Source: Eledone cirrhosa
Taxonomy: Eukaryota
DNA length: 64,000 bases
Assembly (NCBI GenBank): GCA_964016885.1
Contig: OZ024741.1
Span: forward strand, 352,532,001 to 352,596,000
Reading direction: 5' to 3'
The notes below the pieces were generated by a model, which made no database searches, was not told where the DNA came from, and saw only the letters and a program-made list of their open reading frames with translations. Of the stretch, positions 4,763 to 55,714 are shown one piece after another (within the stretch, counting starts at the first letter, position 1; each line of letters starts with the position of its first letter). The translations under genes were made by a program, and so were the position numbers.

Positions 4763-4964
4763 AAGAGCACATACAGTTGGAATGAATGCTACAAAGCATT
4801 CTAAGAGCACATACAGTTGGAATGAATGCTACAAAGCATTCTAAGAGCACATACAGTTGGAATGAATGCTACAAAGCATTCTAAGAGCACATACAGTTGG
4901 AATGAATGCTACAAAGCATTCTAAGAGCACATACAGTTGGAATGAATGCTACAAAGCATTCTAA
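4763..4964. repeat. 40-bp tandem repeat x5 inside a SINE
   Basis: aagagcacatacagttggaatgaatgctacaaagcattct repeated five times, identical. Confidence 0.95.
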
Positions 4965-12393: not shown

Positions 12394-15300
12394 ATCATCA
12401 TCATCATCAACGTTTAACGTCCGTGTTCCACGCTTGCATAGGTTTGGACGGGGGTAGTCCCACTTGAGGCAAGAGTGATTGTCTTGCTCGCATAGGACTG
12501 TCTGGCAGGTTTTCTACAGTTGGATGCCCTTCCTAACACCAACCACATTTACAGTGTGGGTCTGGGAGGTTTTTACCGTGTTGCCTACACGGCCACATTA
12601 CAGCGTGGACTGTGTGTTTTTTTGTCGTGACACCTACACGATCTCATTTGTTTCGGCCTCGATGGCGCGGCACCAACATAACTTTACATAGAACGGGGTG
12701 GTGTGGATGGGGTGGGGGTGGTGGTGGTGGGACGGGGTGTATTTTGTTAGAGATGCCTACTGGCTGGAGTAGGTTTTACTATATATTTAGGTAAGGCGGG
12801 TCTTCTCTGTTACTGAGTACCGCCAAAGGTCTCGGTCCAGTGACATTGTCTTGGAGAGGTGTAAGTGTGTGATGTCGGAGTTTATCAGCTCGTCCCAGGT
12901 TTTTCTAGGTCTGCCTATTCCGTGACTACCGTCTATCTTTATTGCCCTGCACTTTGTTATACAGCTATCGACTTTCATGCGCATCACGTGTCCATACCAA
13001 CGTAGCCTTCTCTCGAGTAAACAACATCTGATCCCTCTTATCTCTAATTTTTTCCTTAGTTCGTTTATGCTTTGCCGTTCACGTATATTACTGTTACACA
13101 TCCAGCGGAGCATGCAAGCTTCGTTCCTCTCTAGTCTGCGTATATCCTCTGCACACAATGCCCAGGTCTCACTGCCATGCAGCATTGCTGTTCGTATGCA
13201 GGCATCGTACAACCTGCCTTTCATTTTTAGTGAGAACCCTTTAGCAGCTAATAGTGGTATAAGCTCTCTGAACTTTTTCCAACCAGTTCTGACTCTAGCT
13301 ACAGTACTTTCAGAGCACCCTCCCCCACTGCTGATTTTATCGCCCAGGTAACGGAAGCTGTCCACTATTTCTATAGAACCCTCTGCGCAATTGAAAGAGC
13401 TAGTATTTTGTGGGCACTTGCTGCTACTTATTGCACCAGAGCACCGGCCACATGTAAAATCTATGTTCTTAGTTAGCTTACCTGTGATCCCACTACATCT
13501 TTTATGCACCCATACTTTGCATTTAGGACATAAAATGGAGTTTCTACCTACGCCTTTCCTACACACCGAGCACGACCATTTCCCAGAAGGGACCGCCGCC
13601 TTGTTTTCTTTCCTACAAACTAGTACTTTGGTCTTAGCCAGGTTAATTTTAAGTCCTTTTGACTCTAGGCCGTGCTTCCATGTTTGGAATTTCTTCTCTA
13701 GCTCGGCCATTGATTCCGCTATGAGTGTCAGGTCGTCTGCGTATAGGAGTTCCCATGGGCAGCCTGTCTTGAACTCCTCTGTTATAGCCTGAAGGGCAAT
13801 AATAAATAGTAGTGGGCTGAGAACAGAGCCCTGATGGACGCCAACTTTTACGCGAAACTCTTCACTATATTCGTTGTTAATTCTAACCTTGCTGACTGTT
13901 TCTTTATACATGGCTTGTATAGCCCTCACAAGCCATTCGTCAACGCCTAGTTTTCTAAGAGCCCACCAGATAATGGAGCGGGGCACTCTGTCGAAGGCTT
14001 TCTCCAAGTCGACAAAAGCTAAGTAGAGGGGTTTACCTTTAGCTAGGTATTTCTCCTGTAGTTGTCGTACTATGAAAAGAGCGTCTGTGGTACTTTTGCC
14101 TGACACAAACCCAAACTGCATTTCATCTAGGTCAATTCTCTCTCTGATTAGTTGCGCTATTACTTTTTCCGTGACCTTCATGACCTGGTCGATTAATTTA
14201 ATGCCTCTATAGTTACTCCTATCTAGGGCGTCTCCTTTACCCTTATAACAGTTAACGATGATGCTGCTATGCCAGTCCTTCGGAACAACCCCATTCTGTA
14301 CGACTTGGTTAACTATGCGGGTGACCATGGTGTGTCCCACCGTGCCAGATGCCTTCAGCATCTCAGCAACTATTTCCGAAGGCCCAGCCGCCTTACCCGT
14401 CTTCATATCCTTGATTGCCTTACTTATTATACTCCCCTCGACTAACACTGCTGGTCCCTCTATTGGGTCGATATGGCGGAGACTGTCTTTCTCCCATTTA
14501 TTCTCCTCATTTAGTAGCCTTTCATAGTGACACTTCCAAGCTACCTTCTTATCAGCGTCGGTGATGGCAAGTGTGCCATCGTCGTTTAGTACACACTTCT
14601 CCCCGACAATATCACGGTTTTCCTTGACGCATTGCCTAGCAATCCTGAACACCTCACGTTTTTGGTCATCGCGTTGTAGAACATGCTTGAACTTTCTTTC
14701 CTCAGCTTCCCTTCTTGCTAAGTACACTTGTCTCCTAGCTTCCCTCCTGGCCACTTGATAGTCTTCTCTACTTCCCCCATCCCGCCTTACTTTCCAAGCC
14801 TGCTTTTTGGCCTTAATTGACCCCTCCACCTTACTGTTCCACCACCATGTTACTCTCCTCCTGCCTACAGGCCTGCTCCAGCCACAGACTTCGTCTGTCG
14901 CCAACAGCAGGTTTGCTTTCAGAAATTCCCACTCTCCCTCTATATTGTCCGACTCTAAATGTTCTTCCTTACTGTCGAAAGCATCAAGTAATATGCTTTG
15001 AAATTTATTCCTGGCTGTGGGGTCCTTTAGCTTCCATATTTTTCTCCTGAGGATAGTCCTCTTCTGCTGTCGAGTACGTCTCGTCCTGACTATGAGGTCG
15101 CTAATTATCAGTCTATGTTGGGAGGTGCATTCTTCATGGGGGAGGGATTTAGTGTTTACAACAGACACTCTGTCACATCTTCTGGTAAGGATATAATCTA
15201 CCTGGCTTGTGTGTTCCCCGGATCTATAGGTGATCAGGTGATTGTCACGTTTTTTGAAGTTAGTGTTACAGATAGTTAGGTTATTTGCATCACAGAATTC

Positions 15301-15585
15301 CAGGATTCTGGAGCCTTCCTCATTTCTAGTACCAAACCCATAGCCTCCATGGATTTCGTCGTAGCCGTCACAATGTTGTCCAACGTGACCATTTAGGTCG
15401 CCTGCGATAATTATATAGTCACTGTCGGATATTTGGGAGGTAGTTAGCATCAGTGTCTCATAGAATCTGTCTTTTATAGTGCCGGGCAGCCCGGATTGGG
15501 GTGCGTACGCAGATATTACTGTCACCGTAGTTCTATTGAGGACAAGTCGTATTTTAATTATTCTGTCGTTCACAACACAGGCTCA
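12394..15585 (-). mobile_element. RTE-clade LINE, subfamily A, 5'-truncated (copy A1)
   Basis: Uninterrupted ORF, ~390-bp 3'UTR and (GAT)n tail, read as atcatcatc at 12394 on the plus strand. Confidence 0.95.
12787..15573 (-). CDS. RTE ORF: partial APE endonuclease, reverse transcriptase and PHD-type zinc finger
   Basis: EN motifs SAYAPQ, AGDLNGHVG, SQVDYIL, TSQH. RT motifs [44 protein letters not shown]4HC3 motif at 13441..13572. RTE C-terminus [19 protein letters not shown]. The N-terminus is cut by 5' truncation. Confidence 0.93.
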   Translation of the reverse strand: MNDRIIKIRLVLNRTTVTVISAYAPQSGLPGTIKDRFYETLMLTTSQISDSDYIIIAGDLNGHVGQHCDGYDEIHGGYGFGTRNEEGSRILEFCDANNLTICNTNFKKRDNHLITYRSGEHTSQVDYILTRRCDRVSVVNTKSLPHEECTSQHRLIISDLIVRTRRTRQQKRTILRRKIWKLKDPTARNKFQSILLDAFDSKEEHLESDNIEGEWEFLKANLLLATDEVCGWSRPVGRRRVTWWWNSKVEGSIKAKKQAWKVRRDGGSREDYQVARREARRQVYLARREAEERKFKHVLQRDDQKREVFRIARQCVKENRDIVGEKCVLNDDGTLAITDADKKVAWKCHYERLLNEENKWEKDSLRHIDPIEGPAVLVEGSIISKAIKDMKTGKAAGPSEIVAEMLKASGTVGHTMVTRIVNQVVQNGVVPKDWHSSIIVNCYKGKGDALDRSNYRGIKLIDQVMKVTEKVIAQLIRERIDLDEMQFGFVSGKSTTDALFIVRQLQEKYLAKGKPLYLAFVDLEKAFDRVPRSIIWWALRKLGVDEWLVRAIQAMYKETVSKVRINNEYSEEFRVKVGVHQGSVLSPLLFIIALQAITEEFKTGCPWELLYADDLTLIAESMAELEKKFQTWKHGLESKGLKINLAKTKVLVCRKENKAAVPSGKWSCSVCRKGVGRNSILCPKCKVWVHKRCSGITGKLTKNIDFTCGRCSGAISSSKCPQNTSSFNCAEGSIEIVDSFRYLGDKISSGGGCSESTVARVRTGWKKFRELIPLLAAKGFSLKMKGRLYDACIRTAMLHGSETWALCAEDIRRLERNEACMLRWMCNSNIRERQSINELRKKLEIRGIRCCLLERRLRWYGHVMRMKVDSCITKCRAIKIDGSHGIGRPRKTWDELINSDITHLHLSKTMSLDRDLWRYSVTEKTRLT

Positions 15586-33930: not shown

Positions 33931-34004
<74 letters not shown>

Positions 34005-34156
34005 ATATATATATATATTAGAATTGTAGCTCTGAAATAGCAATATATATATGGATGTAAATATAATGTATTTTGCAATACACTTTATGCTTAATTAAAA
34101 GCATTTTGAAGACCGTAAGCTATTGTTTTAAAGTAGTGACAAATTCACTCACTTCG

Positions 34157-34248
34157 ATCTCAGCAAACAGGAGGAGATAAGCCGACATGACATGTTTCGC
34201 TTTTGTTGAAGCTTATCAAGGCCAACTACCCCGCCCGTCTGCTGAGAT
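34157..34248 (-). ncRNA. Type I hammerhead ribozyme, family A
   Basis: Reverse complement of the motif at 34440..34531. Confidence 0.85.
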
Positions 34249-34439
34249 TAATGATGTTATATTCTTATAGAAATCTAGTAAATAATCAGGAGCTGATTAT
34301 GCAGAGCGGGTTGTTGGTCAGGCAGAAATTAAAAATTAGAATTGTAGCTCTGAAATAGCAATATATATATGGATGTAAATATACTGCATAATCAGCTCCT
34401 GATTATTTACTAGATTTCTATAAGAATATAACATCATTA

Positions 34440-34531
34440 ATCTCAGCAGACGGGCGGGGTAGTTGGCCTTGATAAGCTTCAACAAAAGCGAAACATGTCA
34501 TGTCGGCTTATCTCCTCCTGTTTGCTGAGAT
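34440..34531 (+). ncRNA. Type I hammerhead ribozyme, family A (U3-A8 core)
   Basis: GCC-TTGATAA-GCTT(caacaa)AAGC-GAAAC-AT(gtc)AT-GTC-GGC, cleavage predicted after 34504. Stem I extends through GGGTAG/TTATCT and ATCTCAGCAGACGGG/CCTGTTTGCTGAGAT. Confidence 0.87.
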
Positions 34532-34756
34532 CGAAGTGAATGAATTTGTCACTACTTTAAAACAATAGCTTACGGTCTTCAAAATGCTTTTAATTAAGCA
34601 TAAAGTGTATTGCAAAATACATTATATTTACATCCATATATATATTGCTATTTCAGAGCTACAATTCTAATTTTTAATTTCTGCCTGACCAACAACCGCT
34701 CTGCATAATCAGCTCCTGATTATTTACTAGATTTCTATAAGAATATAACATCATTA

Positions 34757-34849
34757 ATCTCAGCAGACGGGCGGGGGTAGTTGGCCTTGATAAGCTTCAA
34801 CAAAAGCGAAACATGTCATGTCGGCTTATCTCCTCCTGTTTGCTGAGAT
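34757..34849 (+). ncRNA. Type I hammerhead ribozyme, family A
   Basis: Tandem copy of 34440..34531 with one extra G. Confidence 0.87.
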
Positions 34850-35074
34850 CGAAGTGAGTGAATTTGTCACTACTTTAAAACAATAGCTTACGGTCTTCAA
34901 AATGCTTTTAATTAAGCATAAAGTGTATTGCAAAATACATTATATTTACATCCATATATATATTGCTATTTCAGAGCTACAATTCTAATTTTTAATTTCT
35001 GCCTGACCAACAACCGCTCTGCATAATCAGCTCCTGATTATTTACTAGATTTCTATAAGAATATAACATCATTA

Positions 35075-35166
35075 ATCTCAGCAGACGGGCGGGGTAGTTG
35101 GCCTTGATAAGCTTCAACAAAAGCGAAACATGTCATGTCGGCTTATCTCTTCCTGTTTGCTGAGAT
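35075..35166 (+). ncRNA. Type I hammerhead ribozyme, family A
   Basis: Third tandem copy with an identical core. Confidence 0.87.
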
Positions 35167-35304
35167 CGAAGTGAGTGAATTTGTCACTACTTTAAAACAA
35201 TAGCTTACGGTCTTCAAATGCTTTTAATTAAGCATAAAGTGTATTGCAAAATACATTATATTTACATCCATATATATATATATATAAATATATATTTATA
35301 TATA

Positions 35305-35351
<47 letters not shown>

Positions 35352-35384
35352 TTATATATATATTTATATATATATTTATATATA

Positions 35385-35429
<45 letters not shown>

Positions 35430-35616
35430 ATATTTATATATATTTATATTATATATATATTTTATATATATATATATGAAATTGGAATAAATGCTCTGAA
35501 ATAGCGATATATATGTGAATATAGACATAGAATATTCGAAAATATTCTGTATGTTATAATAAACATTTTGAAGACCTAATCGCTATAGAATAGAATACGT
35601 CACGTATTACAATTAG

Positions 35617-35705
35617 ATTCTCGATAAAAGCAAGGGAAGTAATCTACGCGTTTCATTCTTATTAGAAATCTTCAGGACTACATATCCAGTGCTTTTATCG
35701 AGAAT
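35617..35705 (-). ncRNA. Type I hammerhead ribozyme, family B
   Basis: Reverse complement of 35998..36086. Confidence 0.83.
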
Positions 35706-35997
35706 GACACAGCTAGAGACTTATAGAATACTTAGCTGTGTACAGGAACTGGTTTGAAAGAGCGGTTGCCGGTCCGGCAGAAATTAGAAATTGGAATAAA
35801 TGCTCTGAAATAGCGATATATATGTGAATATAGACATAGAATATTCGAAAATATTCTGTATGTTTATGTCTATATTCACATATATATCGCTATTTCAGAG
35901 CATTTATTCCAATTTCTAATTTCTGCCGGACCGGCACCCGCTCTTTCAAACCAGTTCCTGTACACAGCTAAGTATTCTATAAGTCTCTAGCTGTGTC

Positions 35998-36086
35998 ATT
36001 CTCGATAAAAGCACTGGATATGTAGTCCTGAAGATTTCTAATAAGAATGAAACGCGTAGATTACTTCCCTTGCTTTTATCGAGAAT
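35998..36086 (+). ncRNA. Type I hammerhead ribozyme, family B (canonical core)
   Basis: GTAGTC-CTGAAGA-tTTCT(aata)AGAAt-GAAAC-GC-GTA-GATTAC; palindromic stem III ACGCGT; cleavage predicted after 36058; perfect distal helix ATTCTCGATAAAAGCA/TGCTTTTATCGAGAAT. Confidence 0.85.
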
Positions 36087-36202
36087 CTAATTGTAATACG
36101 TGACGTATTCTATTCTATAGCGATTAGGTCTTCAAAATGTTTATTATAAACATACAGAATATTTTCGAATATTCTATGTCTATATTCATATATATATATA
36201 TT

Positions 36203-36744: not shown

Positions 36745-38864
36745 TATCCGGAATGATAAAGGTGAGCTTGCCCTCACAAGTGCTGAGAAGAAAGATGCAT
36801 GGAAGAGTCATTATGATAGATTACTAAATGAGGAGAATGCATGGGAAGAAGAGACCCTACCCCACGTAGACCCTATAGAGGGACCAGCAGTACAAGTCAG
36901 CGGCAGCGTAGTAAGTAAGGCAATCAGAGATATGAAGATAGGGAAGGCAACCGGTCCATCGGGTATAGCTGCCGAGATGCTGAAGGCATCTGGGTCTGTA
37001 GGTCACACTATAACCACACGTATCGTTAACCAGGTAATACTAGAGGGGGCCATACCAAAAGATTGGTGCAGTAGCATCATTGTCAACTGCTACAAAGGTA
37101 AAGGCGATGCACTAGATAGAGGAAACTATAGAGGTATAAAGTTGATGGACCAGGTCATGAAAGTAACAGAAAGAGTTATAGCACAGCTGATTAGGGACCG
37201 GGTGAATATAGACGAGATGCAATTTGGGTTTGTACCAGGGAAAGGCACCACTGATGCGCTCTTCCTTGTGAGGCAATTACAGGAAAAGTACCTAGCTAAA
37301 AGTAAGCCACTCTACTTGGCATTTGTCGACCTTGAGAAAGCCTTTGACAGAGTTCCACGTGCAGTAATCTGGTGGGCTCTTAGAAAACTAGGAGTAGATG
37401 AATGGCTTGTGAAAGCGGTACAAGCCATGTATAGGGGAGCAGTCAGCAAAGTTAGGATTGGCAATGAGTATAGCGAGGAATTTAGCGTACAGGTTGGGGT
37501 CCACCAGGGCTCTGTTCTTAGCCCTCTCCTGTTCATCATAGTCCTGCAGGCAATAACGGAGGAGTTTAAGACCGGATGCCCATGGGAACTCCTGTATGCT
37601 GATGACCTCGCACTCATAGCTGAATCTATGGTAGAACTAGAGAATAAATTCCAAACCTGGAAGCAGGGACTAGAGAGAAAGGGCCTCAAAGTCAACATGA
37701 CAAAGACTAAGGTCCTTATAAGTAGACGAGAAAACAGAACCCAGATCCCCTCAGGGAAATGGCCTTGCTCAGTATGTAGGAAAGGTGTAGGTAGGAACTC
37801 CATTCTTTGCCCCAAATGCAAACAATGGGTACACAAGAGATGTAGCGGGATCTCAGGAAGCTTAATTAAGAATGTAGGATTCACATGCAGCAGCTGTGCT
37901 GAAACAGCAAGCAAACAGCCACAGGAAACAAGTACCACCAATCTCTGGGAGGGCCCTGTAGAAACAGTAGACAGCTTCTGCTACCTAGGTGACCGAATTA
38001 GCAACGGAGGTGGGTGCTCAGAAAGTACAATAACTAGGGTAAGAACGGGATGGAAGAAGTTTAGGGAACTACTACCACTGCTAGCTGCAAAAGGCTTCTC
38101 CCTCAGAATGAAAGGCAGACTGTATGATGCGTGTATCCGAACAGCGATGTTGCATGGTAGTGAGACCTGGGCGCTGAAGGTGGAAGACTTACGTAGATTA
38201 GAGAGAAACGAAGCCTGCATGCTCCGATGGATGTGTAACAGTAATATACGTGAACGACAAAGCATAAATGAATTGAGAGAGAGACTGAGCATAAGAGGAA
38301 TCAAATGCTGCGTGCAGGAGAGGCGGTTACGCTGGTATGGACATGTGATGCGTATGAAGGATGACAGCTGCATAAAAAGGTGCAGAGCACTAGAAGTTGA
38401 TGGAAACCGCGGAGTGGGGAGACCCAAGATGACTTGGGATGAGGTGATAAAAGCCGACCTTACCCAACTACACCTCTCAAAGTCAATGACACACGACCGT
38501 GACTTCTGGCGTCACGCAGTAATACAGGGTACCCGACCTCCCATGAGTACATGCTGAAGCATATAAACAATATGCCCCCCCCCCCCCCCCCCCACCGCAA
38601 GGTGGTCGTGGAGGTGCCACGGCAAAAAAGCACCCAGCCCACACTGTCAAGTGGACGTGTAGGCGCCACGAAAAAGCACCCAGCACTCACTGTAAATGAG
38701 GTTGGTGTTAGGAAGGGCATCCAGCTGTAGAAATCAAGCCAGATCAGTTCCTGTATGAGCAAGGCATGGTCAGCCGACCAGACACTGCCCACAACAGGAC
38801 AACCCGTCTAACCCATGCTAGTGTGGAAGAACGGACGTAAAACGGTGATGATGATGATGATGAT
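36745..38864 (+). mobile_element. RTE LINE subfamily B, 5'-truncated (copy B1)
   Basis: Open RT-PHD frame to the stop at 38557, then 3'UTR and (GAT)n tail; both flanks (TA)n. Confidence 0.95.
36746..38557 (+). CDS. RTE reverse transcriptase and PHD finger, 5'-truncated
   Basis: IRNDKGEL...YADDL...CSVC..CPKC..HKRC..CSSC...RRLRWYGH. The upstream IY-rich part of the 806-aa ORF is microsatellite read-through. Confidence 0.85.
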
Positions 38865-42100: not shown

Positions 42101-42179
42101 ATGTTTCTCGTTTCTTACAACGAACTCTTTCAAAACATTTTTTGTTTTGAAAGTGTTCGTTGTAAGAAACGAGAAACAT
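42101..42179. repeat. Fold-back palindrome (37-bp arms, one mismatch, T5 loop) in (TA)n
   Basis: atgtttctcgtttcttacaacgaactctttcaaaaca / tgttttgaaagtgttcgttgtaagaaacgagaaacat. Confidence 0.9.
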
Positions 42180-43563: not shown

Positions 43564-46151
43564 ATCATCATCATCATCATCACCGTTTTACGTCCGTTCT
43601 TCCACGCTAGCATGGGTTAGACGGGTTGTCCTGTTGTGGGCAGTGTCTGGTCGGCTGACCATGCCTTGCTCATACAGGAACTGATCTGGCTTGATTTCTA
43701 CAGCTGGATGCCCTTCCTAACACCAACCTCATTTACAGTGAGTGCTGGGTGCTTTTTCGTGGCGCCTACACGTCCACTTTACAGTGTGGGCTGGGTGCTT
43801 TTTTGCCGTGGCACCTCCACGACCACCTTGCGGTGGGGGGGGGGGGCATATTGTTTATATGCTTCAGCATGTACCCATGGGAGGTCGGGTACCCTGTATT
43901 ACTGCGTGACGCCAGAAGTCACGGTCGTGTGTCATTGACTTTGAGAGGTGTAGTTGGGTAAGGTCGGCTCTTATCACCTCATCCCAAGTCATCTTGGGTC
44001 TCCCCACTCCGCGGTTTCCATCAACTTCTAGTGCTCTGCACCTTTTTATGCAGCTGTCATCCTTCATACGCATCACATGTCCATACCAGCGTAACCGCCT
44101 CTCCTGCACGCAGCATTTGATTCCTCTTATGCTCAGTCTCTCTCTCAATTCATTTATGCTTTGTCGTTCACGTATATTACTGTTACACATCCATCGGAGC
44201 ATGCAGGCTTCGTTTCTCTCTAATCTACGTAAGTCTTCCACCTTCAGCGCCCAGGTCTCACTACCATGCAACATCGCTGTTCGGATACACGCATCATACA
44301 GTCTGCCTTTCATTCTGAGGGAGAAGCCTTTTGCAGCTAGCAGTGGTAGTAGTTCCCTAAACTTCTTCCATCCCGTTCTTACCCTAGTTATTGTACTTTC
44401 TGAGCACCCACCTCCGTTGCTAATTCGGTCACCTAGGTAGCAGAAGCTGTCTACTGTTTCTACAGGGCCCTCCCAGAGATTGGTGGTACTTGTTTCCTGT
44501 GGCTGTTTGCTTGCTGTTTCAGCACAGCTGCTGCATGTGAATCCTACATTCTTAATTAAGCTTCCTGAGATCCCGCTACATCTCTTGTGTACCCATTGTT
44601 TGCATTTGGGGCAAAGAATGGAGTTCCTACCTACACCTTTCCTACATACTGAGCAAGGCCATTTCCCTGAGGGGATCTGGGTTCTGTTTTCTCGTCTACT
44701 TATAAGGACCTTAGTCTTTGTCATGTTGACTTTGAGGCCCTTTCTCTCTAGTCCCTGCTTCCAGGTTTGGAATTTATTCTCTAGTTCTACCATAGATTCA
44801 GCTATGAGTGCGAGGTCATCAGCATACAGGAGTTCCCATGGGCATCCGGTCTTAAACTCCTCCGTTATTGCCTGCAGGACTATGATGAACAGGAGAGGGC
44901 TAAGAACAGAGCCCTGGTGGACCCCAACCTGTACGCTAAATTCCTCGCTATACTCATTGCCAATCCTAACTTTGCTGACTGCTCCCCTATACATGGCTTG
45001 TACCGCTTTCACAAGCCATTCATCTACTCCTAGTTTTCTAAGAGCCCACCAGATTACTGCACGTGGAACTCTGTCAAAGGCTTTCTCAAGGTCGACAAAT
45101 GCCAAGTAGAGTGGCTTACTTTTAGCTAGGTACTTTTCCTGTAATTGCCTCACAAGGAAGAGCGCATCAGTGGTGCCTTTCCCTGGAACAAACCCAAATT
45201 GCATCTCGTCTATATTCACCCGGTCCCTAATCAGCTGTGCTATAACTCTTTCTGTTACTTTCATGACCTGGTCCATCAACTTTATACCTCTATAGTTTCC
45301 TCTATCTAGTGCATCGCCTTTACCTTTGTAGCAGTTGACAATGATGCTACTGCACCAATCTTTTGGTATGGCCCCCTCTAGTATTACCTGGTTAACGATA
45401 CGTGTGGTTATAGTGTGACCTACAGACCCAGATGCCTTCAGCATCTCGGCAGCTATACCCGATGGACCGGTTGCCTTCCCTATCTTCATATCTCTGATTG
45501 CCTTACTTACTACGCTGCCGCTGACTTGTACTGCTGGTCCCTCTATAGGGTCTACGTGGGGTAGGGTCTCTTCTTCCCATGCATTCTCCTCATTTAGTAA
45601 TCTATCATAATGACTCTTCCATGCATCTTTCTTCTCAGCACTTGTGAGGGCAAGCTCACCTTTATCATTCCGGATACACTTCTCTCCAATGACATCACAA
45701 CTATCTCTGACACACTGCCTCGCAATCTTGAATACCTCCTGTTTCTGGTCCTCACGTTGTAAAACATGCTTGAATTTTCTATCCTCTGCTTCCCTCCTAG
45801 CTAAGTATACTTGTCGCCTAGCTTCCCTCTTGGTCTCTATGTAATGTACCCTGCTCCCCCCGTTCTTCCATTCTTTCCATGCCTGTCTCTTGGCCTTGAC
45901 TGCTTCATCTACCTTATTGTTCCACCACCAAGTCACTCTCCTCCTGCTTGAGGTCTTACTCCAGCCACAAACCTCATCCGTCGCCTCTAGTAAGTTATTT
46001 TTTAGGAACTCCCAGTTCTCTTCTACGTTAAATGTCTCTATCTGTTCTTCTTTACTGTCGTAGGCGTTGAGTAAAATATCTTTAAATCTGTTACTGGTTG
46101 AGGGGACTTTCAGCTTCCAGATCTTTCTTCTCCAAGATCTTTCTTCTCCAG
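43564..46151 (-). mobile_element. RTE LINE subfamily B, 5'-truncated (copy B2)
   Basis: Nearly identical to B1 over the shared length, extends ~470 bp further 5'; (GAT)n tail; (TA)n flanks. Confidence 0.95.
43864..45936 (-). CDS. RTE reverse transcriptase and PHD finger, 5'-truncated
   Basis: 690-aa open frame with all RT motifs and the C4HC3 motif. Confidence 0.88.
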   Translation of the reverse strand: MTWWWNNKVDEAVKAKRQAWKEWKNGGSRVHYIETKREARRQVYLARREAEDRKFKHVLQREDQKQEVFKIARQCVRDSCDVIGEKCIRNDKGELALTSAEKKDAWKSHYDRLLNEENAWEEETLPHVDPIEGPAVQVSGSVVSKAIRDMKIGKATGPSGIAAEMLKASGSVGHTITTRIVNQVILEGAIPKDWCSSIIVNCYKGKGDALDRGNYRGIKLMDQVMKVTERVIAQLIRDRVNIDEMQFGFVPGKGTTDALFLVRQLQEKYLAKSKPLYLAFVDLEKAFDRVPRAVIWWALRKLGVDEWLVKAVQAMYRGAVSKVRIGNEYSEEFSVQVGVHQGSVLSPLLFIIVLQAITEEFKTGCPWELLYADDLALIAESMVELENKFQTWKQGLERKGLKVNMTKTKVLISRRENRTQIPSGKWPCSVCRKGVGRNSILCPKCKQWVHKRCSGISGSLIKNVGFTCSSCAETASKQPQETSTTNLWEGPVETVDSFCYLGDRISNGGGCSESTITRVRTGWKKFRELLPLLAAKGFSLRMKGRLYDACIRTAMLHGSETWALKVEDLRRLERNEACMLRWMCNSNIRERQSINELRERLSIRGIKCCVQERRLRWYGHVMRMKDDSCIKRCRALEVDGNRGVGRPKMTWDEVIRADLTQLHLSKSMTHDRDFWRHAVIQGTRPPMGTC

Positions 46152-55339: not shown

Positions 55340-55714
55340 TGCACAACTACTTATAAGGACCCTGCACAACTACTTATAATGACCCTGCACAACTATTTAT
55401 AATGACCCTGCACAACTACTTATAATGACTCTGCACAACTACTTATAATGACCCTGCACAACTACTTATAATGACCCTGCACAACTACTTATAATGACCC
55501 TGCACAACTACTTATAATGACCCTGCACAACTACTTATAATGACCCTGCACAACTATTTATAATGACCCTGTACAACTACTTATAATGACCCTGCACAAC
55601 TACTTATAATGACCCTGCACAACTACTTATAATGACCCTGCACAACTACTTATAATGACCCTGCACAACTACTTATAATGACCCTGTACAACTACTTATA
55701 ATAACCCTGTATAA
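55340..55714. repeat. 23-bp minisatellite, ~16 copies
   Basis: gcacaactacttataatgaccct in head-to-tail copies with few substitutions and no spacers. Confidence 0.95.

What the first reader, a model, noticed from the sequence alone, without database searches (positions are those of the whole stretch)
35255..35500. Matching end geometry suggests a built-in TA patch guides insertion
Seen: each unit has an internal short TA run (catcca-tatatatat-tgctatttc in A; attcaca-tatatat-cgctatttc in B). In both elements the right end stops at that run and merges into genomic (TA)n. The left, inverted end runs ~30 nt further and stops at the homologous aattc/aatttc. Known: inverted Penelope insertions have one end with a short extra tail. 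Inference: Penelope-type integration in which the RNA's UA patch anneals to the TA target.
Basis: partly seen in the sequence, partly recalled or inferred. Interest (0 to 1): 0.75.

Follow-up and report, generated by a model that had tools for sequence, protein, structure and literature searches.

The report
Two-start retrozyme insertions in TA repeats
Two non-coding, ribozyme-bearing jumping repeats sit in a TA microsatellite as back-to-back arms that almost always end at two different fixed points, which likely marks copying from both cut DNA strands by a Penelope-type enzyme; their internal TA run possibly pairs with the target at one of the two points, but relatives without it land in TA just the same.

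Summary
A (34019-35269) and B (35478-36187) are hammerhead retrozyme arrays with head-to-head arms. In family A, 211 of 221 mapped 3' ends fall at two sites: P, the 5' edge of the 10-nt TA patch, and T, 34-43 nt further (the known Penelope tail). Inverted copies pair one P with one T in 84 of 87 (B 9/9; coding Hydra-type element H1 35/35). Both arms share an allele in 41/41 loci, and simple fold-back cannot explain 34 of 84. The patch does not choose the target: T ends pair only 0-2 nt, a 1,700-copy relative has AUGUAUACAU, and two coding Hydra-type families have only 2-4 matching bases, yet all insert in TA. The terminal 'patch' is mostly target DNA. In most relatives the patch is the 3' strand of a predicted stem whose AC-rich loop ends at P. 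Pairing may still set the register at P (1/107 ends out of phase against 17/97 at T). The mobilising partner was not identified. The scan had already noted the two-end pairing on other DNA, also in this genome.

The parts
34019..34389 (-). Element A, inverted arm (1.2 units); outward 3' end of T type, 24 nt past the patch (26 with 2 nt shared with the flank)
34384..35269 (+). Element A, forward arm (2.8 units of 317-318 bp); outward 3' end of P type; 6-nt overlap with the other arm at the inversion point
34450..34527 (+). Type I hammerhead motif of unit A (also 34770-34845 +, 35090-35156 +, 34161-34238 -); core reads U3...A8, palindromic stem III, predicted cut after 34499
   Evidence: Rfam HH9 30-31 bits, E 3-5e-5, below the gathering score of 52; core read from the sequence; activity untested
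34902..34941 (+). Two conserved predicted hairpins upstream of the patch (second with a tetraloop: GCAA in A, UUCG in B)
   Evidence: 97% and 96% of cells paired; 1 and 2 pairs changed on both sides
34942..34959 (+). Predicted third hairpin: 5' UA-like strand, AC-rich 6-nt loop ending at the P site, 3' strand = first part of the patch; weak in A and B, strong in A2 and D-prime, absent in the ATAC subfamily
34954..34963 (+). Internal 10-nt TA patch of A (also 34636-34645); its 5' edge is the inferred start site P
34965..34977 (+). 13-nt motif conserved in A, A2, B and D, starting 11 nt after the P site; lies inside the tail
35270..35477 (.). Degenerate (TA)n target between A and B
35478..35864 (-). 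Element B, inverted arm (1.3 units of 309-310 bp); T-type end 29 nt past the patch with no base shared with the flank
35850..36187 (+). Element B, forward arm (1.1 units); P-type end in which the internal ACAT start of the patch is replaced by target ATAT
35878..35887 (+). Internal 10-nt patch of B
36013..36078 (+). Type I hammerhead motif of unit B (also 35625-35690 -), canonical CUGANGA/GAAA core
   Evidence: Rfam HH9 only 17 bits, E about 1; core from the sequence; fold z -2.85

Best explanation
A and B are non-coding hammerhead repeat arrays whose inverted insertions pair two different fixed ends, likely because a borrowed Penelope-type enzyme cuts (TA)n on both strands and primes reverse transcription from each strand at a different site of likely one RNA; the TA patch possibly sets the register at one site, while the target is likely chosen by the endonuclease. 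SHOWN: two end classes 34-43 nt apart; one of each per inverted copy; the same allele in both arms and all units; in 34 of 84 copies neither arm can be a fold-back copy of the other; terminal patches are target-derived; each end class also occurs alone in single-direction copies. INFERRED: site P is set by RNA structure (the end of an AC-rich loop, 11 nt before a conserved 13-mer); site T is a looser window primed with 0-2 bp; the two cDNAs run upstream and join head to head through a few matching bases; a circular or uniform multimeric RNA gives the tandem units. LESS SURE (about 0.55): at P the primer's (AT)n end pairs with the 8-10 complementary patch bases, taking the place of the hairpin's own UA-like 5' strand.
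For: End pairing: A 84 of 87 pairs with both ends classed (p=7e-22 against 50%); 68 of 70 from exact patterns alone; 28 of 30 in loci found without end patterns; B 9 of 9; D 9 of 9 read by eye, one with a shortened tail; coding H1 35 of 35; coding H2 3 of 3 clear cases. One template: allele at unit position 111 concordant in 41 of 41 loci, 57% expected; 52% of variants shared between arms against 23% across loci. Independent priming. Target-derived patch: 29/1080 mismatches at terminal against 9/2910 at internal patches; in D, 86 of 100 listed internal patches have G at place 3 and none is pure TA, yet 67 of 76 TA-flanked ends have lost the mark (by eye). Register: 1 of 107 P ends out of phase against 17 of 97 T ends (p=2e-5); the 9 D ends that keep part of the patch are all in phase. 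The P end followed by (AT)n also appears in raw DNA reads of another organism (267 and 253 reads). In vitro precedent: a Poseidon protein cuts and extends both strands from two internal sites, in an AC-rich stem loop, and is a predicted dimer (PMC11167929).
Against: No coding element with a terminal repeat homologous to A, B or D was found; the only link is one chimera. Shared alleles fit one RNA or two RNAs from one donor locus, and sharing was no higher in register than shifted by one unit. Fifty of 84 copies are compatible by length with fold-back. Phase-keeping upstream shifts also occur in H1 and H2, which have little to pair, so later slippage could make them. P flanks are no purer than T flanks. 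One P end lies in non-TA DNA with 5 of 10 matches (L063). In vitro, PAc started at a site not homologous to the cut DNA and showed no difference in start site between strands. Three of 87 pairs break the rule.
Confidence: 0.65

Rival explanations
1. The patch is purely structural (3' strand of the stem that presents the AC-rich loop, or a spacer of fixed length). Both sites are primed without extended pairing, as for PAc. In-phase junctions come from one sharp start site, a fixed cut phase and later slippage. The two-site, two-strand part of the best explanation stays.
For: C-G pair in the stem of the dominant D-prime patch; patch predicted paired above 0.9 at its core positions in A2, A-prime and D-prime; no purity gain at P; H1 and H2 have sharp P ends without a patch; L063; PMC11167929.
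Against: The stem is weak in the young families A and B and absent in the ATAC subfamily, which still uses P. No odd-numbered downstream shifts were seen among 108 A ends and 76 D ends, though T ends use both phases. Family-level patch variants are transitions that keep 8 or more of 10 bases able to pair in phase.
Confidence: 0.4
2. One reading: the UA patch guides the RNA to TA targets.
For: The P site abuts the patch in four families, 10 nt long across relatives about 70-80% alike; phase lock at P.
Against: T ends, the D lineage, H1 and H2 all land in TA without a pure patch. D ends almost never lie in targets matching their own patch. TA preference in Hydra, Neptune and Naiad elements is attributed in print to the protein (PMC8557442).
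Confidence: 0.1
3. Fold-back or self-priming: one cDNA is primed at one site, folds back, copies itself and is joined to the second target strand, at the patch by microhomology or at the tail by endonuclease resolution (as proposed in PMC8557442 and PMC3846280).
For: Would explain one-of-each ends and shared alleles; 4 of 84 junctions start at the same unit position in both arms; 50 of 84 fit by length.
Against: 34 of 84 fit neither direction. Both end types occur alone in single-direction copies (24 loci). D ends replace rather than copy the patch. It would survive only with an antisense or longer circular template.
Confidence: 0.15
4. The patch is a TATA-like promoter element 25-30 nt before a start site, and its position next to the end is incidental (a TATATATA box was noted in a rotifer Penelope pLTR, PMC3846280).
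For: The spacing to the T site resembles TATA-to-start spacing (recalled).
Against: The abundant D patches are not TATA-like; no transcript ends are available.
Confidence: 0.05

Closest known systems
Metazoan non-LTR retrozymes (PMC7229834, passages; bioRxiv 10.64898/2026.07.22.740005, parts 1-3 of 5)
   Same: Tandem units of about 300 bp, low GC, type I hammerhead in each unit, no coding frame; proposed to be moved by Penelope-like elements.
   Different: The text read does not describe their ends ('inverted' and 'microsatellite' gave 0 hits in PMC7229834). Here the arrays carry the full Penelope footprint: inverted arms, tail, TA target.
Poseidon from Anolis carolinensis, PAc (PMC11167929, parts 1-2 of 4; figures and supplementary figures not seen)
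   Same: Two internal start sites whose distance is the 30-40 nt tail; start in an AC-rich stem loop; both target strands cut and extended; AT-rich targets.
   Different: PAc starts at a site not homologous to the cut DNA and showed no strand difference in start site. Here one site is followed by 8-10 target-complementary bases, and the two strands use different sites in 97% of inverted copies.
Insertion units of endonuclease-bearing Penelope-like elements, the Hydra clade in particular (PMC8557442, passages and section 11; PMC3846280, passages)
   Same: [quoted passage not shown] Coding elements with the Hydra RWK and DKT motifs are abundant in this genome and show the same pairing of ends.
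   Different: A and B encode nothing and their partner is unknown. The papers state the one-sided tail qualitatively and ascribe it to endonuclease resolution or self-priming.
Endonuclease-less Athena/Coprina elements and telomerase (PMC8557442 passage; telomerase alignment region recalled)
   Same: An RNA stretch complementary to a repeat target lies beside a hammerhead and would align the primer.
   Different: Those attach to telomeric overhangs without an endonuclease. These insert inside chromosomes in (TA)n, and only one of two ends has the stretch.
L1 priming (PMC3649969, abstract only) and L1 twin priming (recalled)
   Same: Primer-template pairing within about 10 bases, with tolerated end mismatches; two target strands priming one RNA give an inversion.
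   Different: L1 primes at the poly(A) end and its second site is variable, with non-overlapping arms. Here both sites are internal and fixed, and the arms cover the same sequence.

Membership tests
Metazoan non-LTR retrozyme | Type I hammerhead in each tandem unit | tested here: met
   Core and stems read from the sequence; Rfam HH9 31 bits (A) and 17 bits (B), both under the gathering score of 52
Metazoan non-LTR retrozyme | Tandem units of 150-450 bp, low GC, non-coding, dispersed copies | tested here: met
   317 and 310 bp units; 30% GC over 34001-36000; no frame of 120 aa inside the units; over 120 A loci
Metazoan non-LTR retrozyme | No LTR, primer-binding site or polypurine tract | tested here: inconclusive
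   No flanking direct repeats beyond the tandem units; a primer-binding site was not searched for
Metazoan non-LTR retrozyme | Self-cleavage and circular RNA | not testable with these tools
   Needs RNA data or an assay
Autonomous EN+ Penelope-like element | Frame with RT and GIY-YIG endonuclease | tested here: not met
   None in A or B; coding Hydra-type frames nearby are separate insertions
Penelope-mobilised insertion | 30-40 bp tail at one end of inverted 5'-truncated arms | tested here: met
   34-43 nt between the sites; 84 of 87 pairs
Penelope-mobilised insertion | Homology to the terminal repeat of a coding element | tested here: inconclusive
   None found among the fetched loci; one A2-H2 chimera, absent from 29 other H2 loci
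Penelope-mobilised insertion | Target-site duplication | not testable with these tools
   Cannot be read inside (TA)n
PAc-type priming | Start in an AC-rich stem loop | tested here: inconclusive
   Predicted for P in A2, A-prime and D-prime, weak in A and B, absent in the ATAC subfamily
PAc-type priming | Start site not homologous to the cut DNA | tested here: not met
   True for T (0-2 nt), not for P (8-10 of 10 complementary)
Athena/Coprina EN- elements | Attachment to telomeric repeats through reverse-complement telomeric stretches | tested here: not met
   Copies lie inside contigs in (TA)n
L1 twin priming (recalled) | Variable second site and arms covering non-overlapping parts of the RNA | tested here: not met
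   The second site is fixed and the arms overlap in sequence; 5' ends are spread over the unit

The most novel reading that the evidence does not exclude
An endonuclease-bearing Penelope enzyme works as an asymmetric dimer on a single RNA, priming the two strands of a cut at two different sites. At the upstream site a UA-rich hairpin acts as a telomerase-like alignment region: the target's (AT)n end displaces the hairpin's own 5' strand and fixes the register. Hammerhead retrozymes carry this cassette and are written into the genome from RNA circles by two polymerases at once.
Probability: 0.3. Interest if true: 0.75.

Novelty: new variant of a known kind. Interest (0 to 1): 0.5.

Why it matters
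How Penelope-like elements make their inverted arms and one-sided tail is an open question, and how animal retrozymes are mobilised is untested. The counts turn 'often at one end' into a near-strict rule that holds for non-coding and coding elements alike. They show that the arms share a template haplotype and that a third or more cannot come from fold-back. That gives sharp predictions for the existing in vitro system, and natural patch variants (pure TA, G/C-interrupted, absent) that separate pairing from structure.

Tried and rejected
Patch as target selector: rejected. Left/right asymmetry: rejected. In-register sharing of unit-specific variants between arms: not detected, too few such variants. 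Search for the coding partner: H1 and H2 have unrelated terminal repeats; the A2-H2 junction at L102 is a single chimera; the join of A to an RT frame in L053 looks like two neighbouring insertions. Pfam found no RT family for the Hydra-type frames; they were classed by the RWK and DKT motifs named in PMC8557442. Expression: no RNA holder listed. Single unit-length contigs that loop back in runs X1 and X2 could be collapsed tandems and were not used. Read-end pile-ups fall on AATT sites and were taken as restriction ends of the RAD library (enzyme inferred). Rfam microRNA hits only reflect B's inverted repeat. The first flank-purity comparison (47/1020 against 23/1080) was biased by where counting began and was replaced. 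One search read the wrong end of minus arms and was replaced. Paper searches listed no paper whose title or abstract start shows a count of end pairing or a target-complementary patch in EN+ elements. Most subscription papers are not in the library, the bioRxiv supplements are closed, and the PAc supplementary figures could not be seen (one search found none of 4 terms in 3 text files).

Full report
WHAT IS THERE. The window lies in a 3.0-Gb genome (G000:C2). Between long (TA)n arrays sit element A (34019-35269, unit 317-318 bp) and element B (35478-36187, unit 309-310 bp). Each has two arms joined head to head, with the 3' ends pointing out. The units are non-coding and each carries a type I hammerhead motif (Rfam HH9 31 bits in A and 17 in B, both under the gathering score). 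They fit the description of animal non-LTR retrozymes (PMC7229834, passages; bioRxiv 10.64898/2026.07.22.740005, parts 1-3 of 5).

TWO END SITES. A whole-unit search scored 40 of 877 candidates. In the 39 loci taken from it, 69 of 71 non-gap 3' ends fall at the patch (P) or about 24-35 nt past it (T). Patterns that do not demand a TA flank gave 113 non-standard patch matches and 102 tail matches, with 0 in the reversed controls (100 rows listed of each; a few are internal variants or chance). Over 128 non-redundant loci there were 108 P, 103 T, 10 other and 2 gap ends; 8 loci gave no arm passing the filter. Flanks are TA-rich at 100 of 108 P and 100 of 103 T ends. The P end followed by (AT)n is also seen in raw DNA reads of another organism, and a T end in two of its contigs, so the geometry is not an assembly artefact.

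ONE OF EACH. Of 97 inverted pairs, 84 are P/T, 1 P/P and 2 T/T; 8 have one end elsewhere and 2 touch a gap (p=7e-22 for 84 of 87). One T/T case has mirror-image flanks (L043). B gives 9 of 9 (13 loci examined) and the older relative D 9 of 9 (29 examined, read by eye). A coding element with the Hydra-clade RWK and DKT motifs (H1, L229) has sites about 110 nt apart and gives 35 of 35 among 98 P and 57 T rows on the first 197 Mb of C1 (2 internal P rows and 1 non-TA T row left out). A second, H2, gives 3 of 3 clear cases. Both arms and all units agree at the common polymorphism in 41 of 41 loci (57% expected), and locus-private alleles run through both arms in several loci. In 34 of 84 copies neither arm is short enough to be a fold-back copy of the other. 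Each end type also occurs alone in 24 single-direction loci. I infer two priming events on one template haplotype. One RNA versus two RNAs from one donor is not resolved: sharing in register was not higher than shifted by a unit.

WHAT THE PATCH IS. The run at a P end is mostly target. Mismatches to (AT)5 are 29/1080 at ends and 9/2910 inside arrays (16/1060 without two non-TA ends, p=1e-4). The D lineage settles it. Of 1,744 internal matches, the 100 listed show AUGUAUACAU in 67, G at place 3 in 86 and pure TA in none. Of 1,897 non-standard matches, the 100 listed hold 76 TA-flanked ends; 67 of them have lost the mark and 9 keep part of the patch (counted by eye, 24 rows were internal variants or other). 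Copying therefore starts at or within 2 nt of the patch's 5' edge, 11 nt before a 13-mer conserved in A, A2, B and D. The distance to T is then 34-43 nt, the known tail. Upstream lie two hairpins with changes on both sides of pairs (10 related sequences, structure taken from their own folds, so the controls lean in its favour). The patch can close a third hairpin whose AC-rich loop ends at P. This is predicted strongly in A2, A-prime and D-prime, where a C-G pair replaces U-A, weakly in A and B, and not in the ATAC subfamily. PAc starts in an AC-rich stem loop (PMC11167929).

DOES IT GUIDE INSERTION? Not the choice of target. T ends share 0-2 nt with the flank and their flanks are as pure as P flanks (6/68 against 7/95). 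D ends lie in TA rather than in repeats matching their own patch. H1 has only TACAT and H2 only TA after the P site, yet H1 alone has 1,135 matches for a P end with an A/T flank. One A copy ends at P in non-TA DNA (L063).

DOES IT PAIR? Possibly, to set the register. P ends are out of phase in 1 of 107, T ends in 17 of 97. The D ends that keep part of the patch are all in phase, where pairing-free starts would give odd shifts too. A C-to-T change just before the patch occurs at 3 of 108 ends and 0 of 291 internal sites (p=0.02). Family-level patch variants keep at least 8 of 10 bases able to pair. Against this, phase-keeping upstream shifts also occur in H1 and H2, so slippage after insertion can mimic part of the signal, and PAc primed without homology. 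I put pairing at about 0.55. L1 needs as few as 4 matching bases and tolerates end mismatches compensated within 10 (PMC3649969, abstract), so such a role would be chemically ordinary.

COMPARISON AND NOVELTY. The tail, its usual presence at one end, the inverted arm and the TA preference are in print (PMC8557442, passages and section 11; PMC3846280, passages). Two internal start sites are shown in vitro (PMC11167929, parts 1-2 of 4). A Penelope origin of retrozymes is argued in the 2026 preprint. Eight searches did not list a count of end pairing or a target-complementary patch in EN+ elements; the library lacks most subscription papers. Earlier notes of this scan reached the two-end reading on other repeats, also in this genome; they are unchecked and are not evidence. 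The mobilising enzyme is unidentified: the only link is one insertion in which about 40 A2 units join the 3' untranslated region of H2 through 4 shared bases. Labels from memory: L1 twin priming, the telomerase alignment region, the tolerance of U3-A8 in hammerhead cores, AATT as a RAD enzyme site, TATA spacing.

VERDICT. A real, sharp footprint and a new variant of known kinds. The targeting claim fails; the register claim stays open and is directly testable. Interest 0.5.

Noticed in passing
window 36745-38589 and 43832-45676: A 1,845-nt pair of perfectly complementary arms of a LINE-type RT element (Pfam RVT_1 E 4e-32) with (GAT)n 3' ends in TA arrays; further pieces near 12787-15582 and 48100.
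   Followed up: no
L102:8690-8815, L301, L302 (G000:C2 about 208.895-208.910 Mb): About 40 tandem A2 units (13 kb) joined on the same strand to the 3' untranslated region of a 5'-truncated Hydra-type element (H2) through 4 shared bases; a possible template switch that would name H2 as a mobiliser. Not seen in 29 other H2 loci.
   Followed up: partly
window about 34865-34870 and 34968-34973: A splice-donor-like GTGAGT (GTAAGT in A2, D and in reads of another organism) and an acceptor-like TTTCAG inside the conserved 13-mer would bound an intron of about 110 nt that includes the patch; B lacks an obvious donor.
   Followed up: no
L053:1778 and L205:1055: Two independent A arms stop at exactly unit position 191 and run into other inverted elements; may be chance among 10 'other' ends.
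   Followed up: partly
L043 (G000:C4 358.176-358.180 Mb): The clearest T/T exception has mirror-image flanks that encode Hydra-type RT, so it lies in a larger inverted duplication.
   Followed up: partly
window 42103-42177: A 75-nt near-perfect palindrome inside TA, like a minimal head-to-head insertion.
   Followed up: no
many loci: At least ten further repeat families end sharply at TA arrays, several with hammerhead-like cores; TA arrays here act as a shared landing ground with nested insertions.
   Followed up: partly
L032, L182: Variants repeat with a three-unit period or in one arm only, which points to tandem duplication or conversion after insertion.
   Followed up: no
window 55340-55709 and 4763-4964: Homogeneous minisatellites of 23 bp (16 copies) and 40 bp (5 copies).
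   Followed up: no
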